DNA of 64,000 nucleotides from Parcubacteria group bacterium M6-OD1-1 (lineage in GTDB: Bacteria; Patescibacteriota; Minisyncoccia; GWC2-36-17; M10-OD1-4), in NCBI GenBank assembly GCA_003056085.1, contig LSNK01000002.1, positions 110,575 to 174,574 on the forward strand. Direction: 5' to 3'. The notes under the pieces were generated by a model. It searched no databases. It was not told the origin of the DNA and worked only from the letters and a program-made list of their open reading frames with translations. Shown piece after piece: positions 13,283-64,000 of the stretch. Position numbers and translations under genes: made by a program. How positions within the stretch are numbered: the stretch's first letter is position 1; each line of letters opens with the position of its first letter.

Positions 13283-13332
13283 CCAAAAAATCAACACCGT
13301 AGCAAATGGTGACGACCGTCACCATTTGCTAC
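13283..13332 (-). terminator. intrinsic terminator after murJ (perfect 16 bp stem, then U-run on the minus strand)
   Basis: GTAGCAAATGGTGACG-AC-CGTCACCATTTGCTAC followed on the minus strand by GGTGTTGATTTTTTGG. Confidence 0.6.
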
Positions 13333-24249: not shown

Positions 24250-24454
24250 ACTAATGTTGTTTTAATTATAAACAAGACTTAATGTTGGAAACAGTAACTA
24301 AATTACAACATTTAGCACCCCTCACTTGGACTAACAATTAAAAATTAAAACTTAATATTAACGCCAAAATCTTGCTTTAAAAACCAAGTGAGGGATTAAG
24401 GTTTTGCTCCCAAAATTTCAAGGCTTAGCCTTGAAATTTTGGGCAAAGCCCTTA
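24250..24454 (-). repeat. intergenic structured element, R family copy 2
   Basis: Minus strand TAA-GGGCTTTG, a 16 bp hairpin, AAAACCTTAATC, CCTCACTTGG, a 60 nt spacer, CCAAGTGAGG, GGTGCTAAATGTT. Confidence 0.6.
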
Positions 24455-57754: not shown

Positions 57755-58801
57755 ATGCAAACCTCAAGAAATATTACTATCGCTGGAGGAGGAATTGGCG
57801 GATTAGTTTCAGGTATTATTTTACAAAAAGCCGGTTTTTCTGTCTCAGTTTTTGAAAAACTCAACAATTGCGGCGCACGCTTTCACGGAGATTGGCAAGG
57901 AATAGAAAATTGGAGCTCTGATAAAGATATTATTGAAGAGCTTAAAATATTTGGTATAGACATTACCGATATTATTATTCCCACCAGTAACTTTACAGCC
58001 TTTTCTTATAAAAAAACATTTCAGATAAACTCTTCTTACCCTGCATTTTATTTGGTAAAAAGAGGTTCTGATAAAGGAACTCTTGATCAAAAGCTGAAAT
58101 ACATTGCGGAACAATGCGGCGTCAAAATTCATTACGACACTCCTGTTGTGAGTATGGACAATATTGATATTGTCGCCACCGGACCAAATCCGAAAAATTC
58201 CATATATATAGCAAAAGGTCTTAATTTTACAACCGATTGCTATAATGTTGCCGCTGTGTATTTAGATACCAAACGATTCCCTTACGGCTATGCGTATTTC
58301 TTAACAATAAATGGACAGGCAACACTTGCGATGTGCGGTAAAAAAAATACCCTTCAAAAAAAAGAGAAAATGCTAAATGATGCTATTGATTTTTTCAGAA
58401 GCAAACTGGGATTATTTGAAATTCAAAATAAAAGAAATTTTGGCGGCTATGGCATCACACCACTTCCTAATATCTTCTCCATCTCAAAACCTCTCATTAT
58501 TGGAGAAGCTGCGGGACTTCAAGATAATCTCTTTGGATTTGGAATGAGATACGCGTTTAGGTCGGCAATAGCCGCTTCTCAATGCATTGCTAATGATGTG
58601 CCTTATCATTCATTTTTTAAAAATAAATTGGCACCGGATGTTGTTGCAAGCCGTCTCTGGGGAAAAATCATATTTAGGGCGCTCAAAAATCCGGGCATTG
58701 ACTTTATATGTTCTATGGCGGAAAAAGATTGTCAGTCATCATTAAAACCTTTCTATAATTCTTCTTTGTTCACCAAAATTGCTGGACCAATATTTTCTTA
58801 A
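57755..58801 (+). CDS. FAD-dependent oxidoreductase (geranylgeranyl reductase / NAD(P)-binding Rossmann family)
   Basis: ITIAGGGIGGLVSGIILQKAGFSVSVFEK dinucleotide-binding motif; GEAAGL. Confidence 0.55.
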   Translation: MQTSRNITIAGGGIGGLVSGIILQKAGFSVSVFEKLNNCGARFHGDWQGIENWSSDKDIIEELKIFGIDITDIIIPTSNFTAFSYKKTFQINSSYPAFYLVKRGSDKGTLDQKLKYIAEQCGVKIHYDTPVVSMDNIDIVATGPNPKNSIYIAKGLNFTTDCYNVAAVYLDTKRFPYGYAYFLTINGQATLAMCGKKNTLQKKEKMLNDAIDFFRSKLGLFEIQNKRNFGGYGITPLPNIFSISKPLIIGEAAGLQDNLFGFGMRYAFRSAIAASQCIANDVPYHSFFKNKLAPDVVASRLWGKIIFRALKNPGIDFICSMAEKDCQSSLKPFYNSSLFTKIAGPIFS

Positions 58802-58838
58802 AAAACACCGGTTATCCAAAGGATAACCGGTGTTTTTC
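58801..58838. terminator. bidirectional intrinsic terminator (12 bp stem CACCGGTTATCC/GGATAACCGGTG)
   Basis: AAAAACACCGGTTATCCAAAGGATAACCGGTGTTTTT between the convergent 57755 gene and ndk. Confidence 0.75.
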
Positions 58839-58854
58839 TATTTTTAGAACAATT

Positions 58855-59448
58855 TTACTCTAAAATACCATCTAAATTTATATCATAAAGCATCTTTTCA
58901 TTCACATGCTTGTAGTTTATTATTTCGTCATCTTTGAACCAAATTTTTATCTCTCTTTCCGCTTCTTCAGGGACATCTGAACAATGAAGTAAATTTCTAA
59001 CAGCTCTATTGCCAATATTTGCCAAAGCATATGAGTCTACCGTTAAATCTCCTCTTATAGTTCCAACATCAGAAGTTAGCGGCTCTGTTCCTCCTACAAT
59101 TTTTTTAACAATACCCACGGCTTGATTGCCTTCAATAATCATAGCAACAACAGGGCTTGCCGTCATGAAAGAAAAATTTCCTTCTAAAATCTCTCTTCCA
59201 TATTCTAAGGCACTTTTTTCCGGCTTATCGCCTTTTTCTTTAATATTTTTTATGGTAATATTTCCTTTTTCTTCACACCAAACATCATCTTTATTATAAT
59301 GAGCTGCAACTTGTTCCCTTGTAGGAACAACCATTTTTATAGCGGCAAACTTTAACCCTAATCTTTCAATTCTTTGTATTATCTCCCCCATAAGCGACCG
59401 ATGAACCGCATCGGGTTTTAATATTACAAGACTTCTCTCTTTAATCAT
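58855..59448 (-). CDS. ndk: nucleoside diphosphate kinase (long form with insertion)
   Basis: ERSLVILKPDAVHRSLMGEIIQRIE...; active-site region NLLHCSD. Confidence 0.75.
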   Translation of the reverse strand: MIKERSLVILKPDAVHRSLMGEIIQRIERLGLKFAAIKMVVPTREQVAAHYNKDDVWCEEKGNITIKNIKEKGDKPEKSALEYGREILEGNFSFMTASPVVAMIIEGNQAVGIVKKIVGGTEPLTSDVGTIRGDLTVDSYALANIGNRAVRNLLHCSDVPEEAEREIKIWFKDDEIINYKHVNEKMLYDINLDGILE

Positions 59449-59581
59449 TTTTTTAGATTACTTTAAATTACGAAATGAGCTTATTGCGAAAATTTAAAAT
59501 AAGATTTAATTTTAATAATTTTAAGATTAACATAAAAAATATAAATTTAAAAGGAAAAACGCAACATATTTGCTGCGTTTT

Positions 59582-60301
59582 CTAAAAATAAAACTGGTTT
59601 TTACCAAAAAGAACTGAGCTTGATGTTTTTGACCCGTGATGATTGATTTTTAAAACATCAACGTCAATATCAAGACCTGAATTTGATAAGTTTAACTCCT
59701 CTTTTAACTCAGCATCACCGGAAAACAAAAATTTCCTATCAAAAAATTTTAAAATCAATGCTAAAGAAGTATTATTTGGATTTTCCACTTTCACCCCTGA
59801 CATGTCAGAAAAAGGATATAAAACATCCATTGAAACAAATTCACCTAAATTTATTTGAACTCCCGCCTTTGCTTCTATTTTATTTATATTTTTTTCCTTT
59901 ACTAACCCGGACAACTCTTTGTAAAGGCTGTTTTTGTATTCAATGCTGGAAAATAATATATTGTCCACTTTATATCTTTTTAAAACATCAATGAGTCCGA
60001 AAATATGATCTTTTTGGGGATGCGTTATCACTAAAAGGTTTATTTCTCTATCATAAAAAGGCATAACTTTAGAAAGCTCAGATAAAACGGAATTGTCCGG
60101 ACCTCCGTCTATCAAAACCTGAATTTTTTCAGGTGTTTCAATGAAAATCGCATCCCCTTGCCCTACATTTAAAAAATAAATTTTTAAATTTCCATCTGCG
60201 CCATACTTAAAAATAAAACTCCAAATAAATATCACAATAATCAACACTCCACCCCAAAAATATAATTTATTTTTTGTATTTTTATTAAAATTAAAAATCA
60301 T
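59582..60301 (-). CDS. comEC: ComEC/Rec2 C-terminal metallo-beta-lactamase domain fragment, separated from the comEC body by a transposase insertion
   Basis: One transmembrane helix, then MBL-fold motifs VITHPQKDH...GDAE...HHGSK. Its start codon directly abuts palindrome P1. Confidence 0.6.
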   Translation of the reverse strand: MIFNFNKNTKNKLYFWGGVLIIVIFIWSFIFKYGADGNLKIYFLNVGQGDAIFIETPEKIQVLIDGGPDNSVLSELSKVMPFYDREINLLVITHPQKDHIFGLIDVLKRYKVDNILFSSIEYKNSLYKELSGLVKEKNINKIEAKAGVQINLGEFVSMDVLYPFSDMSGVKVENPNNTSLALILKFFDRKFLFSGDAELKEELNLSNSGLDIDVDVLKINHHGSKTSSSVLFGKNQFYF

Positions 60302-60307
60302 CCCCTC

Positions 60308-60332
60308 AACTTAGGGGTGCAACCCCTAAGTG
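60308..60332. repeat. REP-like palindrome P1 (CTTAGGGGTGCACCCCTAAG)
   Basis: Perfect 20 nt palindrome between the comEC MBL fragment and the transposase stop. Confidence 0.7.
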
Positions 60333-60346
60333 ATTTAACGCTAAAA

Positions 60347-61024
60347 TTATTCCAACAGAAAACTTTCTACCTCTTTTAATCTTTTTCTTCTTTCTAAAAT
60401 AGACTCCAGAGACTTTTTTGCAAATTTTCTATAATCTTCTTTATTTTTAAACTGATTTAAAATAATATCTTTCTTACAAAAATTATTTTCTGTATTTTCT
60501 GTATACTCCATCCAGCTTGACCTGCTTTTAACCAACTTAGGGGTTGCACCCCTAAGTTGATGAACTTCATTATTTAAATTAACATAAACACTCGTGTTTA
60601 AAAGTTGTTCGTTTGAATCTATATGCACGGACTTAAATCTTCCTTGAAAAAGCACTCCTGAACGATTATATTTTTTGTTAAAATATGAAGTATACCCGCC
60701 CAATCTTCTCATAAACTCACTAATACCACCATCAACAACTTGCTCTAATATAAAATGATAATGATTTGGATTAAGACAAAAAGCTAAAATATTTACTAAT
60801 TTAGAATCATTAACCAACTTAGGGGTTGAACCCCTAAGTTGGTTAATTTTAAATGATTGTGCGTAAATACTGCCTATAGGATTTATATTATTAAATTCAT
60901 TCATGCTCTGATAAAATCTATCAACATCATATTGGTCTAAAAAAACATTACGCTGATCTACGCCACGATTACAAATATGATAAAACTCATTATTTGTAAT
61001 AAATTGTATTTTTCTATTACCCAT
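60347..61024 (-). mobile_element. RAYT/IS200-like HUH Y1 transposase (transposase_17 family), 225 aa, with two in-frame palindrome insertions
   Basis: HUH motif NPNHYHFIL. Tyr-rich GGYTSYFNKKY, then GVLFQGRFKSVHIDSNEQL (the RAYT-type GxWQxRF motif). Peptides QLRGSTPKLV and QLRGATPKLV are encoded by palindrome copies at 60533-60560 and 60813-60841. Confidence 0.65.
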
Positions 61025-61040
61025 ATACTTAATATTGTAC

Positions 61041-61079
61041 CATAAACTTACTTAGGGGTTGAACCCCTAAGTAAGTTTA
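61041..61079. repeat. REP-like palindrome P4 (perfect 39 nt: ATAAACTTACTTAGGGGTT-G-AACCCCTAAGTAAGTTTAT)
   Basis: Lies exactly between the transposase start and the stop codon of the comEC N-terminal fragment. Confidence 0.75.
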
Positions 61080-62459
61080 TTAAAAAGAAATTGAGGAAAA
61101 AGACAGGCTTCCAAGAACCTCTATCACCTTCAGTTGGTAAGCTAAAATAAACCATAAAGGAAATACAAATATCTTAGCTAAAAAAAGAGAAACAAAACTC
61201 AATACTCCTGTTAAAAACGCCAAAAGCATAGCAATGGGTATTACGGGCAATATTAAAATATTAGCCAATGGAGAAATAACAGAAATCTGATTAAAATTAT
61301 ATATTAATATGGGCAAAACAGCGGCTTGCGCAGAGAGAGTCGCAGATAGTGTATCCCGCAATTTAAAAAAATTCGGAATCTTTTTAAATTTTTTTAAAAA
61401 ATAAGGATAAAAATACAATAGTCCTAAAGTTGCCAAAAAAGAAAGCTGAAAAGAAACATCAAATACTAAAATTTTTGGATTAAAAAGTATCATTAAAAAT
61501 GCAGCAAAAACAAGTGCGTTCAAAGAGTGTTGCGCTCTACCATAGTATCTTGCTAAAAGCAAAACCGAACCCATTAAGGCAGCCCTCACAACGGAAGCGG
61601 ATGCTCCCGTCATAACAACAAATAAAGTTATCGTAAAAATAGCAGTCAATACTATAACTTTTCTATTTGAAATAAAAAAACTGAATATCCACGCCAAGAA
61701 CATCACAATAATGGTTACATTAAAACCAGACAGCGCAATAATATGTGCTGTCCCTGTTTTTATAAAATCATCATATAATTTGGGCGGGATTTCCGACTTT
61801 GAACCAAAAATCACACCATTTATAAAATCAGCTTCCGGAGAAGGAAGTAAAATTTTAATATTATTTTCAAATTCTTTTTTAAATTTAAAAAGATTAGAAG
61901 CAATGACATTTCCTTTTTCTTTCTCTTTAACTTCAATTTTAGGATTTTGCATCAAAAAATATATATTATCTTTTGAAAGATATGCTCTATAATCAAAATC
62001 ATTAAAATTTTCCGGTTCTTTTAATTCTCCTCTCACCAAAATTAAATCTCCATACTCATACTCCGGATATCTTTCTGTTTTTATTAAAACCCTCTCTTTT
62101 TCTTTTGTTTGTAAAATAATTTTTTGTTTGACACCTTTAAACTCCGGCTCTCTTAAAATAATCCCTGAAATTTCTATATTTTCCCCAACAAACTTTTCCA
62201 ACGATAAATATTTTGGAGATGATTTTTGATACCAGAAAATCCCTGCAAAAAATATTAAAAAGAAAATAAAAAGAAGAAAAATGTGCTTTTTTTGAAAAAA
62301 AGAAAATAAAAAGACAGCAATGATAGAAAAAACAAATAATACCAAAAACAAGTCAAAACCAAAAAATGTTGCATAAAAAACGCCACCCAAAAAAGACAGC
62401 ATTGTAAATAAAAATATTTTTGATTTTGTAAAAATACTAAATTGACTCTTCATACTCAT
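61080..62459 (-). CDS. comEC: ComEC/Rec2 N-terminal (DUF4131-like) plus competence membrane domain, truncated before the MBL domain
   Basis: Multi-pass membrane region with GTAHIIALSGFNVTIIVMFLAWI (competence domain). Its stop codon abuts palindrome P4. Confidence 0.6.
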   Translation of the reverse strand: MSMKSQFSIFTKSKIFLFTMLSFLGGVFYATFFGFDLFLVLFVFSIIAVFLFSFFQKKHIFLLFIFFLIFFAGIFWYQKSSPKYLSLEKFVGENIEISGIILREPEFKGVKQKIILQTKEKERVLIKTERYPEYEYGDLILVRGELKEPENFNDFDYRAYLSKDNIYFLMQNPKIEVKEKEKGNVIASNLFKFKKEFENNIKILLPSPEADFINGVIFGSKSEIPPKLYDDFIKTGTAHIIALSGFNVTIIVMFLAWIFSFFISNRKVIVLTAIFTITLFVVMTGASASVVRAALMGSVLLLARYYGRAQHSLNALVFAAFLMILFNPKILVFDVSFQLSFLATLGLLYFYPYFLKKFKKIPNFFKLRDTLSATLSAQAAVLPILIYNFNQISVISPLANILILPVIPIAMLLAFLTGVLSFVSLFLAKIFVFPLWFILAYQLKVIEVLGSLSFSSISF

Positions 62460-64000
62460 GATAACCAGCCAGACTTTTTAAATCTTCTCCCTTCTTAAAT
62501 AAGAAAATTTTATTGAAATCAATTTTATTGATAAAATACCTATCATGACTTACTAATATTAATGTCCCTTTAAAATCTCTGACAGCCTCCTCCAATTTTT
62601 CAAGAGCTTCAAGGTCAAGATGATTAGACGGTTCATCTAAAACAAGACAATTTACTTTTTTAGACATAATAATAGCAAGTATAAGCCTGGACCTCACACC
62701 CGGACTTATATACTTTATTTTTTTATTTATATATTCTCCGTCAATTCCAAATCTATAAAGTAGAGCTCTTCCAAGACTAATATCTATATCCGTATCTTTT
62801 GAAAATTGCTTCAAAACTGTATTTTCATTATTAAAATAATTTTCTTGAGGTAAATATCCTATGCTCACTCGGGATCCTTTTTCTATACAACCTCCATCAT
62901 ACTCTGTCTGACCTAAAATAATCTTTAAAAAAGTTGACTTGCCAATTCCATTTGCGCCAAGAATCAAAATCTTATCACCATATTTTATTGATAGATTTAT
63001 TGGACCAATATTTACATCTTCTATATTTTTTACAACATTCTTAATTTCAAAAACCTTATCTCCGCTCCTTTCATCAACATCAAAATAAAGCCTTAGAGAA
63101 AGCTTTTCCTCTGGCTTCACTCCACTTTCTTTTACTAAAGATGCTTTCTTTTTTAAAAGTTTCGCTTCTTTTGCAAGCTTTCCAGCTTGTGTATTAAAAA
63201 CATCTTTAGTAAGATGATCTTTATCCGTTGCTTTACTACTTATATTTTTTTTCTGTCTTCCTCTTACCTCAATAAGAGAGACATCTCTCATTTTTTTATT
63301 TACTGCATGTTTTAATTTTTTCTCCGCTTTAACACTTTCATTATATACCCCCCACTTGTTTTCTAATATATTCTTTTTAGCTTTTATATAATCACTGTAA
63401 TTACCATTATAAATTTCTGATTTTTTGGAAAATTCATCAATTTCAATAATCTTACCTACTATTCTGTCAATAAACTTTCTATCATGAGATATAATTAAAA
63501 ATGTTTTATTGCTTTTTCTTATAAAATTTTCAAAAAATATTAAAGTTGCTATATCAAGATTATTTGTAGGTTCATCAAGTAAAAACAAACCTGCTTTGGA
63601 ATTTATTATTTTAATCAAAGCAACTTTTGATTTTTCTCCACCACTTAAATTTTTAATGCTTTTTTCTAAATACTTTTTATCAAGATTAAACTTATAAAAA
63701 TAATCTTCTATATTAGATTTATATTTTTCACTATTATTTTCCTGTATTAAATAATCCATAACTGAAATATCCTCCAAAAATTCTTGCGGAAAATATCCTA
63801 TATTTATTTTTTTCACAAAATCTAAACTTCCTTTGTCTGCTTTTAAAAAATCGCCCAATATTTTAAGAAGAGTGGATTTGCCTGATCCGTTCGTGCCGAC
63901 TAATCCGACTTTTTCTCCTTTATATAAACCAAAACTTATACCTTTAAGAACATTAAAATCATCATAGCTTTTTTCTATATTTGTAACCTTTAAGACTATT
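62437..64000 (-). CDS. ABC-F family ATPase (two ABC domains), N-terminus beyond the window edge
   Basis: Second domain Walker A GANGIGKST and signatures LSGGEKSKV and ISPGVRSRL. The reading frame stays open to position 64000, encoding ...KGEKVGLVGTNGSGKSTLLKIL (first Walker A). Confidence 0.8.
   Translation of the reverse strand, partial: IVLKVTNIEKSYDDFNVLKGISFGLYKGEKVGLVGTNGSGKSTLLKILGDFLKADKGSLDFVKKINIGYFPQEFLEDISVMDYLIQENNSEKYKSNIEDYFYKFNLDKKYLEKSIKNLSGGEKSKVALIKIINSKAGLFLLDEPTNNLDIATLIFFENFIRKSNKTFLIISHDRKFIDRIVGKIIEIDEFSKKSEIYNGNYSDYIKAKKNILENKWGVYNESVKAEKKLKHAVNKKMRDVSLIEVRGRQKKNISSKATDKDHLTKDVFNTQAGKLAKEAKLLKKKASLVKESGVKPEEKLSLRLYFDVDERSGDKVFEIKNVVKNIEDVNIGPINLSIKYGDKILILGANGIGKSTFLKIILGQTEYDGGCIEKGSRVSIGYLPQENYFNNENTVLKQFSKDTDIDISLGRALLYRFGIDGEYINKKIKYISPGVRSRLILAIIMSKKVNCLVLDEPSNHLDLEALEKLEEAVRDFKGTLILVSHDRYFINKIDFNKIFLFKKGEDLKSLAGYHEYEESI

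What the first reader, a model, noticed from the sequence alone, without database searches (positions are those of the whole stretch)
59582..62459. comEC split into two ORFs by a RAYT/IS200-like transposase flanked by perfect palindromes
The 61080-62459 ORF carries the ComEC N-terminal and competence membrane domain. The 59582-60301 ORF carries the ComEC metallo-beta-lactamase domain. Between them sits a 225 aa HUH Y1 transposase (60347-61024).

The transposase is bounded by palindromes. P1 (60308-60332) abuts the start codon of the MBL fragment. P4 (61041-61079, a perfect 39-mer) abuts the stop codon of the N-terminal fragment.

In most bacteria ComEC is one ~750 aa protein. This looks like an insertion that either inactivates DNA uptake or creates a two-polypeptide ComEC. 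CPR bacteria are thought to depend on DNA uptake, which makes the disruption notable.
Basis: partly seen in the sequence, partly recalled or inferred. Interest (0 to 1): 0.65.

Follow-up and report, generated by a model that had tools for sequence, protein, structure and literature searches.

The report
REP-flanked transposase between two comEC genes
A small hairpin-flanked transposase gene sits between the DNA-uptake channel gene and its separate nuclease gene, but it did not split comEC, because these bacteria normally carry comEC as two genes.

Summary
The three ORFs, their domains and the palindromes are real. The causal reading is not supported. All close relatives of the channel protein (40-72% identity) end at the same residue. 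They are followed by a separate 268-303 aa MBL gene and then ndk. In five relatives the gap between the two genes is -4, 9, 12, 15 or 399 nt, with no transposase. [quoted passage not shown]

The window has a 778-bp REPtron-like cassette placed exactly in that natural gene junction. It encodes a Y1 HUH transposase whose best structural match is E. coli TnpA_REP (4ER8). The cassette carries four copies of one hairpin: upstream, downstream, and two in frame inside the gene. This four-site layout recurs across a large Patescibacteria family. The hairpin sequence differs between loci but is identical within a locus. In other genomes the same hairpin type occurs as low-copy extragenic solo copies. 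In-frame REPs inside tnpA_REP genes have a published precedent.

Separately, the window's MBL gene has lost 13 plus about 45 C-terminal codons, including near-invariant residues. The nuclease may therefore be decaying, for a reason other than ORF splitting. Interest is modest.

The parts
61080..62459 (-). comEC-N gene. It encodes the DNA-uptake channel part (OB-fold DUF4131 plus the Competence membrane domain), 459 aa, and is intact.
   Evidence: Pfam hits. It ends at the same residue as the seven closest relatives. Those relatives are 440-458 aa.
61042..61080 (.). Upstream hairpin P4 (the family's 'U' position). It is a perfect 39-nt palindrome, and its first base is the last base of the comEC-N stop codon.
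   Evidence: ssDNA folding gives -17.4 kcal/mol, z -7.4. A hairpin is present at this position in 71 of 78 homologous loci.
61034..61042 (-). Extended -10-like box TGGTACAAT, 9 nt upstream of the transposase ATG. Its T is the last base of hairpin P4. It implies an own promoter with a very short or absent leader.
   Evidence: TGnTAnnAT lies about 12-20 nt upstream of the ATG in 48 of 82 loci, and the TG often comes from the hairpin foot CCAAGTG. This is a consensus match only, so the promoter is inferred.
60347..61024 (-). Y1 HUH transposase gene (RAYT-like), 225 aa. The HUH motif is H88-Y-H90 and the catalytic Tyr is Y147.
   Evidence: Pfam Y1_Tnp. H88, H90 and Y147 are invariant in 65 homologues. 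The AlphaFold model has pLDDT 77. The best PDB match is 4ER8, TnpA_REP bound to a REP hairpin, followed by the IS608 and ISDra2 TnpA structures.
60809..60847 (.). Internal hairpin P3 (the family's 'I1' position). It is a perfect 39-nt palindrome, in frame, encoding residues 60-72 (INQLRGSTPKLVN) between helix 2 and the strand that precedes the HUH strand.
   Evidence: The model shows a low-confidence coil here. A hairpin is present at this position in 44 of 80 loci.
60533..60559 (.). Internal hairpin P2 (the family's 'I2' position). It has a 12-bp stem, is in frame, and encodes residues 156-164 (QLRGATPKL), just after the catalytic-Tyr helix.
   Evidence: A hairpin is present at this position in 51 of 80 loci. 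It is identical to the flanking hairpin in 29 of 53 loci, against 1 of 490 between-locus controls.
60309..60331 (.). Downstream hairpin P1 (the family's 'D' position). It has a 10-bp stem. Its loop is the reverse complement of the P2 loop.
   Evidence: A hairpin is present at this position in 57 of 76 loci.
60302..60307 (-). GAGGGG, a Shine-Dalgarno-like sequence directly before the MBL ATG. It can alternatively pair with the CCCC of the P1 3' arm.
   Evidence: Read from the sequence. The alternative stem was listed by the terminator scan. Its function is inferred.
59582..60301 (-). Stand-alone ComEC-type MBL nuclease gene with an N-terminal TM helix, 239 aa. It is truncated: it lacks 13 internal residues and about the last 45 residues found in relatives.
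   Evidence: It is 74% identical to the L007 MBL over residues 14-224, after which the match ends, with no remnant in any frame. Relatives are 268-303 aa. The missing part holds residues conserved in at least 90% of relatives: H-P, R-T-D and G.
59555..59582 (-). Terminator-like hairpin followed by a T-run. It begins within the MBL stop codon.
58855..59448 (-). ndk gene (nucleoside diphosphate kinase). It serves as a synteny anchor.
   Evidence: ORF. The order comEC-N, MBL, then NDK is seen in L007, L010, L130, L131 and L132.

Best explanation
This Patescibacteria genome carries comEC in the form normal for its clade. One gene encodes the membrane channel (DUF4131 plus Competence). A second, adjacent gene encodes a TM-anchored MBL nuclease, and ndk follows.

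A 778-bp REPtron-like cassette (61079-60302) has been inserted into the few-nucleotide junction between the two genes. The cassette is a single-copy RAYT-like Y1 HUH transposase gene bracketed by its cognate REP-type hairpins. Two more copies of the same hairpin lie in frame, in two flexible loops that flank the catalytic core.

By analogy with TnpA_REP and IS200/IS605 TnpA, the enzyme is inferred to bind these hairpins on single-stranded DNA, then cut and rejoin next to them. That activity would spread solo hairpins to intergenic sites, move the cassette occasionally, and keep all copies at a locus identical. Gene conversion between copies could contribute as well.

The insertion breaks no ORF. 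It does separate a normally abutting gene pair. The MBL gene has independently lost its 3' end, so the nuclease half of the uptake machine may be impaired while the channel half is intact.

Shown here: the gene architecture, the ancestral split, the four-hairpin layout and its covariation across the family, the extragenic solo copies in other genomes, and the MBL truncation. Inferred: enzymatic activity on the hairpins, the homogenisation mechanism, the promoter, and any functional consequence for DNA uptake.
For: The split is ancestral.
- the closest ComEC-N proteins end at the same residue.
- stand-alone MBL proteins are the norm.
- five relatives have separate adjacent genes, then ndk, with no transposase.
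- the literature reports the fusion as essentially absent in CPR.

The cassette is an insertion specific to this lineage.
- It is absent at the orthologous site in those five relatives.
- None of 92 other transposase loci has comEC or MBL within 3 kb.
- Homologues sit in unrelated contexts, next to GAPDH and next to recR.

The cassette is RAYT-like.
- Pfam Y1_Tnp.
- Invariant HUH and Tyr.
- Foldseek top hit 4ER8, TnpA_REP with a REP hairpin.

The four-hairpin layout is family-wide.
- hairpin at U in 71/78 loci, at D in 57/76, at I2 in 51/80 and at I1 in 44/80. At least one internal hairpin is present in 67/80.
- the internal copy equals the flanking copy exactly in 26/53 and 29/53 loci, against 2/490 and 1/490 between loci.
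- the foot ACTTGG/CCAAGT is conserved, while the inner stem and loop vary.
- the hairpin-encoded peptides co-vary within each protein.

The hairpins disperse like REPs in other genomes.
- the same stem occurs on several contigs of single MAGs (4-8 exact matches each), mostly with the same loop.
- 28 of 33 solo copies lie outside long open frames, although 86% of the bases lie inside such frames.

Precedent for in-frame REPs inside tnpA_REP genes: Quentin et al. 2018, subclass 2.4.

MBL decay.
Against: - No solo copy of the hairpin occurs in the other ~63 kb of the window. REP-like dispersal is therefore not shown for this genome.
- The source genome was not among the GTDB representatives scanned.
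- The canonical 5' GT[AG]G REP tag is absent.
- The NCBIfam REP_Tyr_transpos score is 29.8 bits against a cut-off of 80.
- No enzymatic data exist for this family.
- The MBL 3' truncation rests on one assembly, because L127 and L128 end before it.
- About 15% of loci lack both internal hairpins, so these hairpins are not obligatory.
Confidence: 0.85

Rival explanations
1. A formerly single ~750 aa comEC was split by the transposase insertion. This either inactivated DNA uptake or newly created a two-polypeptide ComEC.
For: The two fragments match adjacent parts of the full-length ComEC model TIGR00361, and a mobile-element-like cassette lies exactly between them.
Against: - All close relatives are already split at the same residue, without any element.
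- Fused forms appear only at about 30% identity, in other phyla.
- Fused proteins carry an extra ~35-40 aa TM segment between the two parts that neither window ORF has.
Confidence: 0.03
2. The cassette is an autonomous IS200-type insertion sequence, not a domesticated RAYT/REPtron. On this view the two outer hairpins are its left and right ends, the whole 778 bp transposes as a unit through a single-stranded circle, and the solo hairpins elsewhere are by-products or unrelated.
For: - It has a Y1 transposase with a hairpin at each end.
- It is absent from the orthologous site in relatives and found in unrelated contexts in other genomes.
- The IS608 and ISDra2 TnpA structures are also matched.
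Against: - There is a single copy in the 64 kb.
- The nearest homologue in the 5.8 billion non-redundant sequences searched is only 66% identical, so there is no sign of recent multiplication.
- Cassette GC (29.6%) equals that of the neighbouring genes.
- Solo hairpins with the same stem, and mostly the same loop, are dispersed extragenically in genomes that carry one such gene.
- The best structural match is TnpA_REP.
- The hairpins are perfect palindromes in either orientation, not distinct left-end and right-end structures.
Confidence: 0.12
3. The hairpins act mainly as RNA or transcriptional elements. They would insulate the transposase from read-through, stabilise or attenuate its mRNA, or tune translation of the downstream MBL gene. 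They would not be substrates of the enzyme.
For: - The upstream hairpin abuts or overlaps a conserved extended -10 box. This recalls the IS200 left-end terminator hairpin (from general knowledge of IS200).
- The 3' arm of P1 can alternatively pair with the MBL Shine-Dalgarno-like GAGGGG.
- Di Nocera et al. 2013 argue that many REPs act as RNA elements.
Against: - The upstream copy lies before the predicted promoter, so it would not be in the transposase mRNA, yet it is the best-conserved copy (71/78).
- Loop orientation is same or inverted about equally often, which is hard to reconcile with a strand-specific RNA role.
- No T-run follows the hairpins.
- No Rfam family is matched.
- This model does not explain why the sequence differs between loci but is identical within a locus.
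Confidence: 0.1

Closest known systems
REPtron: the REP-associated tyrosine transposase (RAYT / TnpA_REP) with its flanking REPs. Examples are E. coli TnpA_REP (PDB 4ER8) and the REPtrons studied by Ton-Hoang 2012 and Corneloup 2021.
   Same: - Single Y1 HUH gene with HUH and catalytic Tyr.
- Bracketed by cognate hairpins, each gene having its own hairpin sequence.
- In related genomes the same hairpin is scattered in intergenic DNA.
- Best structural match.
   Different: - No GT[AG]G tag; the conserved foot is ACTTGG/CCAAGT.
- Perfect palindromes with a 3-nt loop.
- Low copy number (4-8 exact copies in other MAGs, none elsewhere in this window).
- The protein is about 60 aa longer, with a long C-terminal helix.
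- Below the NCBIfam equivalog cut-off.
- Found in Patescibacteria, which the published classifications do not mention.
TnpA_Y1 subclass 2.4 of Quentin et al. 2018 (Cyanobacteria and Bacteroidetes), in which REPs are inserted in frame inside the tnpA_REP gene.
   Same: REP copies lie inside the transposase ORF without breaking the frame, in a peripheral and probably tolerant part of the protein, in addition to the flanking REPs.
   Different: [quoted passage not shown]
- Here the two sites lie before the HUH strand and after the Tyr helix, so they bracket the catalytic core.
- The sites are positionally conserved across a family of about 950 clusters at 50% identity.
- Membership of subclass 2.4 could not be tested.
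IS200/IS605 insertion sequences (IS608, ISDra2, IS200).
   Same: Y1 HUH transposase with hairpins near both ends, and the expected action on single-stranded DNA.
   Different: - No tnpB.
- Single copy.
- Identical palindromes at both ends rather than distinct left-end and right-end hairpins.
- Dispersed solo hairpins.
- Internal hairpins.
The unfused ComEC of CPR bacteria (Meheust et al. 2019).
   Same: The channel protein lacks the MBL domain, as in nearly all CPR genomes. Here the MBL part is a separate adjacent gene, as in five relatives.
   Different: In this genome the two genes are 778 bp apart, with a cassette between them, and the MBL gene is 3'-truncated.
Rickettsia palindromic elements and other intragenic REPs (Di Nocera et al. 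2013).
   Same: Palindromic repeats are carried in frame within functional protein genes.
   Different: Here the host gene is the presumed mobilising enzyme itself, and the sites are conserved across the family.

Membership tests
RAYT / TnpA_REP REPtron | Y1 HUH endonuclease fold with an HUH motif and one catalytic Tyr | tested here: met
   Pfam Y1_Tnp scores 31.7 bits against a gathering score of 23. H88, H90 and Y147 are invariant in 65 sequences. The Foldseek top hit is 4ER8.
RAYT / TnpA_REP REPtron | Gene flanked on both sides by its cognate REP hairpins | tested here: met
   P4 lies upstream and P1 downstream. Across the family the figures are 71/78 and 57/76 loci.
RAYT / TnpA_REP REPtron | The same REP is dispersed in many extragenic copies in the host genome | tested here: inconclusive
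   There are no solo copies in the remaining ~63 kb of the window. In other MAGs with this hairpin type there are 4-8 exact copies on different contigs, and 28 of 33 solo copies are extragenic. The source genome was not available.
RAYT / TnpA_REP REPtron | Conserved 5' GT[AG]G tetranucleotide at the foot of the hairpin (canonical REPs) | tested here: not met
   The conserved foot is ACTTGG...CCAAGT and there is no GTAG. Quentin et al. also describe atypical REPs without GTAG, in subclass 2.6 and class 3.
RAYT / TnpA_REP REPtron | Score above the NCBIfam REP_Tyr_transpos (NF047646) equivalog cut-off | tested here: not met
   29.8 bits against a cut-off of 80.
RAYT / TnpA_REP REPtron | Strand-specific cleavage and strand transfer on single-stranded REP DNA | not testable with these tools
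   This needs the in vitro cleavage and strand-transfer assay of Corneloup et al. 2021.
IS200/IS605 insertion sequence | Several (near-)identical full copies per genome, as a sign of recent transposition | tested here: not met
   There is one copy in 64 kb. The best non-self homologue in the database is 66% identical. The whole genome was not available.
IS200/IS605 insertion sequence | Distinct subterminal left-end and right-end hairpins, each with a guide tetranucleotide and cleavage site | tested here: inconclusive
   There are hairpins at both ends, but they are the same palindrome in either orientation. Cleavage sites are unknown.
Full-length ComEC/Rec2 (TIGR00361) | DUF4131, Competence and MBL domains in one polypeptide | tested here: not met
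   There are two ORFs, scoring 103.6 and 86.2 bits against a cut-off of 190. Relatives are also split.
Two-gene CPR comEC (channel gene plus separate MBL gene) | The channel ORF ends after the Competence domain, and a separate TM-anchored ~283 aa MBL gene lies immediately downstream | tested here: met
   The end point matches that of the seven closest relatives, and the gene order comEC-N, MBL, ndk is shared. The window departs from this in its 778-bp spacer and in an MBL of 239 aa instead of about 283 aa.

The most novel reading that the evidence does not exclude
In a Patescibacteria-wide Y1 HUH family, the enzyme's own recognition hairpins are kept, by selection rather than mere tolerance, at two fixed in-frame sites that bracket its catalytic core. 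The enzyme itself would keep them identical to the flanking and dispersed copies.

The gene would then be a substrate of its own product. In the window the two internal hairpins are 282 nt (94 codons) apart and in the same frame. Recombination between them would remove the HUH-Tyr core precisely and in frame, giving a built-in self-limiting switch.

Alternatively, the hairpin-encoded peptides might take part in recognising the hairpin. DNA target and recognition peptide would then change together automatically.
Probability: 0.12. Interest if true: 0.6.

Novelty: new variant of a known kind. Interest (0 to 1): 0.35.

Why it matters
For comEC, the result removes a false lead. The two-ORF comEC is the normal CPR form, so this locus is not evidence that a mobile element disrupted DNA uptake. 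The only sign of impairment is the 3'-truncated nuclease gene.

The cassette belongs to a large REP/RAYT-type family in Patescibacteria that I could not find described. It has about 950 clusters at 50% identity at E <= 1e-30. Its hairpins sit at four fixed places, including two inside the coding sequence, and they evolve in concert. This gives a compact natural system for studying three questions:
- how HUH enzymes and their hairpin targets co-evolve;
- how palindromes are tolerated in coding DNA;
- whether small CPR genomes carry REP-like repeats.

Tried and rejected
- A PDB sequence search with the family profile found nothing at E <= 1. Only the fold search placed the protein.
- The Rfam scan of the region gave only sub-threshold chance hits of the palindromes to miRNA-precursor models, so no known RNA family is involved.
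- The genome-contig scan for the window's hairpin did not recover the source genome. The hairpin copy number in this genome remains unknown.
- I looked for comEC or MBL genes next to 92 other transposase loci and found none. A specific comEC-transposase association is rejected.
- I looked in all frames, and across the whole window, for the missing MBL C-terminus and found none. A simple frameshift is rejected in favour of deletion.
- L129, the closest ComEC-N relative (72% identity), is too short to show what follows. Its downstream ORF could not be identified.
- I considered a tnpB partner or a second transposase copy in the window and found none.
- I considered the idea that the repeated QLRGxTPKL peptide, rather than the DNA, is the selected feature. 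I rejected it for three reasons: the non-coding flanking copies carry the same sequence, the nucleotides match at synonymous sites, and the loop can be inverted.
Full report
**1. Observation**

The three minus-strand ORFs exist as described.
- 61080-62459 (459 aa) carries DUF4131 and Competence.
- 60347-61024 (225 aa) carries Y1_Tnp.
- 59582-60301 (239 aa) carries Lactamase_B.

The two ComEC pieces align to positions 73-373 and 410-618 of the 663-position full-length ComEC model TIGR00361. They are therefore adjacent, non-overlapping parts.

The palindrome core CTTAGGGGT-NNN-ACCCCTAAG occurs four times in the 64 kb, only at this locus. No match appeared in 100 shuffles. The exact spans are 60309-60331, 60533-60559, 60809-60847 and 61042-61080.

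Two of the four copies lie in frame inside the transposase ORF. They encode residues 60-72 (INQLRGSTPKLVN) and 156-164 (QLRGATPKL). All four fold as stable ssDNA hairpins.

The whole arrangement is 100% identical in two independent assemblies. It is real.

**2. The comEC split is ancestral, not caused by the insertion**

I searched with the two fragments concatenated. Every close relative (40-72% identity, more than 100 proteins, named Azambacteria, Parcubacteria or Portnoybacteria where named) is a 440-530 aa protein with DUF4131 plus Competence only. Fused 730-810 aa proteins appear only at about 30% identity and come from other phyla. The seven closest relatives stop at the same residue as the window protein (...SFSSISF), whereas fused proteins continue.

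The MBL fragment finds 119 stand-alone proteins of 268-303 aa among the 120 best hits other than the query itself.

Gene order in five relatives is comEC-N, a separate MBL gene, then ndk. The gaps between the first two genes are:
- -4 nt (an ATGA overlap) in L007;
- 9 nt in L130;
- 12 nt in L131;
- 15 nt in L132;
- 399 nt in L010, where the gap holds an unrelated small membrane ORF and a terminator.

None of the five has a transposase there.

**3. What the insertion is**

Relative to these relatives, the window carries an extra 778 bp (61079-60302) exactly in the gene junction.

The encoded protein belongs to a large family. There were 1371 hits in the 90%-clustered database. The closest non-self hit is 66% identical, and named hits are all Patescibacteria. 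In the 50%-clustered library there are about 950 clusters at E <= 1e-30.

The HUH motif (H88, H90) and Y147 are invariant. The AlphaFold model (pLDDT 77) best matches E. coli TnpA_REP bound to a REP hairpin (4ER8, E 9e-5), then the IS608 and ISDra2 TnpA structures. NCBIfam REP_Tyr_transpos is hit only below its cut-off.

Homologues sit in unrelated contexts, next to GAPDH or recR. None of 92 other loci has comEC or MBL within 3 kb. The window has one copy, and the cassette GC equals that of its neighbours.

**4. The four-hairpin layout is a family trait**

In the protein alignment, both internal segments read QLGGxTPKL-like. Their variable residues co-vary within each protein. DNA from L002 and L005 shows locus-specific hairpins at the same four places.

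I then examined 80 metagenome loci. A hairpin with at least 8 of 10 bp paired is present:
- upstream in 71/78;
- just after the stop codon in 57/76;
- at internal site 2 in 51/80;
- at internal site 1 in 44/80;
- at one or both internal sites in 67/80.

The internal copy is identical to the flanking copy over 16 stem nucleotides in 26/53 and 29/53 loci. The between-locus controls give 2/490 and 1/490.

The foot ACTTGG/CCAAGT is conserved. The inner 4 bp and the 3-nt loop vary between loci. Loops of copies within a locus are nearly always either identical or exact reverse complements, in roughly equal numbers. The unit that is copied is therefore the DNA palindrome, in either orientation, and not a peptide motif.

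The hairpin-encoded segments are low-confidence coils in the model. More distant members show the same behaviour with other hairpins, for example the CKGPTFA repeats in P0436.

In 48 of 82 loci an extended -10 box (TGnTAnnAT) lies about 12-20 nt before the ATG. Its TG is often supplied by the hairpin foot. This suggests an own promoter and a nearly leaderless mRNA. That point is inferred.

**5. REP-like dispersal**

A scan of GTDB representative genomes for the window's hairpin type found the same stem, mostly with the same loop, on several contigs of single MAGs: Saccharibacteria, Kaiserbacteria, Paceibacterota, an unnamed Patescibacteria MAG, and also a Clostridia MAG. In some of these MAGs one locus carries a transposase homologue flanked by the hairpin.

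Of 33 solo copies, 28 lie outside long open frames, although 86% of the bases of these loci are inside such frames. This is the REP/RAYT (REPtron) pattern at low copy number. The window itself has no solo copy, and its genome was not in the collection, so dispersal in this genome is untested.

**6. Comparison with what is known**

REPtrons and TnpA_REP are well described. [quoted passage not shown] 2018, PMC6006769). Intragenic REPs in other genes are also known (Di Nocera et al. 2013).

The present family differs in five ways:
- host phylum, since that paper does not mention Patescibacteria or Parcubacteria;
- REP type, with no GT[AG]G and a perfect palindrome;
- the two insertion sites bracket the catalytic core;
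- the sites are positionally conserved across the family;
- the hairpin overlaps the promoter.

I therefore rate it a new variant of a known kind. I found no description of it in two targeted literature searches.

**7. The MBL gene is truncated**

The window MBL is 74% identical to the L007 MBL up to residue 224. It then ends with GKNQFYF* and a terminator-like hairpin. Relative to 23 relatives it lacks 13 residues (LEKTSPEIAVISV) and about the last 45. The missing part includes H-P, R-T-D and G positions conserved in at least 90% of relatives. No remnant exists in any frame or elsewhere in the window.

This looks like gene decay by deletion. It may follow the loss of the tight coupling to comEC-N, but that link is speculative. 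The truncation rests on a single assembly.

**8. Verdict**

The identification of the parts is right. The claim that the transposase split comEC is refuted.

What is present is a REPtron-like cassette in a natural intergenic junction of a two-gene comEC, plus an independent 3' truncation of the nuclease gene. The channel gene is intact. The family-wide intragenic hairpins are the most interesting aspect, and they have a published precedent.

Noticed in passing
window 59582-59650: The MBL gene ends early. It lacks 13 internal residues and about 45 C-terminal residues compared with the 268-303 aa relatives, including near-invariant H-P and R-T-D motifs. A terminator-like hairpin at 59555-59582 follows directly.
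   Followed up: yes
window 60017-60037 (MBL motif THPQKDH); alignment A4: In most of these stand-alone CPR MBL proteins the canonical HxHxDH metal-binding motif reads HPQxDH. The second His is replaced by Q, E or D. A few relatives keep HPHxDH.
   Followed up: no
L010 5330-5728: In one relative the same comEC-N/MBL junction holds a different 399-bp insert, a small hydrophobic ORF plus a terminator-like hairpin. This junction has therefore accepted insertions more than once.
   Followed up: partly
window 60809-60847 and 61042-61080; L055 near +623; L078 near -59: Some copies are perfect palindromes far beyond the shared core (19-24 bp arms), and the outer arms are specific to each site. In P3 this adds codons to the protein. 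It suggests palindrome extension by hairpin-templated copying.
   Followed up: no
L095, L103, L105, L110, L112, L123, L124 (Clostridia MAGs CAZINL01 and CAYOCI01): The same core hairpin, with GTTAAC feet (GTTAACTTAGGGGTCTGACCCCTAAGTTAAC), occurs in at least 7 copies in a Clostridia MAG, which is outside Patescibacteria. No transposase homologue was found in the fetched stretches.
   Followed up: no
L068 +2035, L071 -1407, L076 +1208 (relative to the transposase start): Some loci carry, within a few kb, a hairpin of the same foot type but with a different inner stem from that of the resident transposase. This hints at more than one hairpin family per genome.
   Followed up: no
window 13299-13332: A single perfect 34-nt palindrome, GTAGCAAATGGTGACGACCGTCACCATTTGCTAC. 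It begins with GTAG and ends with CTAC, like a 'double foot' REP. There is only one copy in the window.
   Followed up: no
window 24409-24443 and 58801-58837: Two further long perfect palindromes (35 and 37 nt). The second lies between the convergent 57755-58801 ORF and ndk, and looks like a bidirectional terminator.
   Followed up: no
window 62437-62459: The comEC-N start overlaps the end of the upstream ABC-F-type ATPase ORF (62437-63858) by 23 nt. In relatives the upstream neighbours differ (ftsZ, PaaX-like, dprA, cobalamin adenosyltransferase).
   Followed up: no
P0451, P0463, P0485, P0495, P0500: More distant family members have 30-50 extra, highly variable residues at internal site 1, sometimes with short tandem peptide repeats such as YPELSS twice. 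This is consistent with multiple or degraded hairpin insertions at that site.
   Followed up: partly
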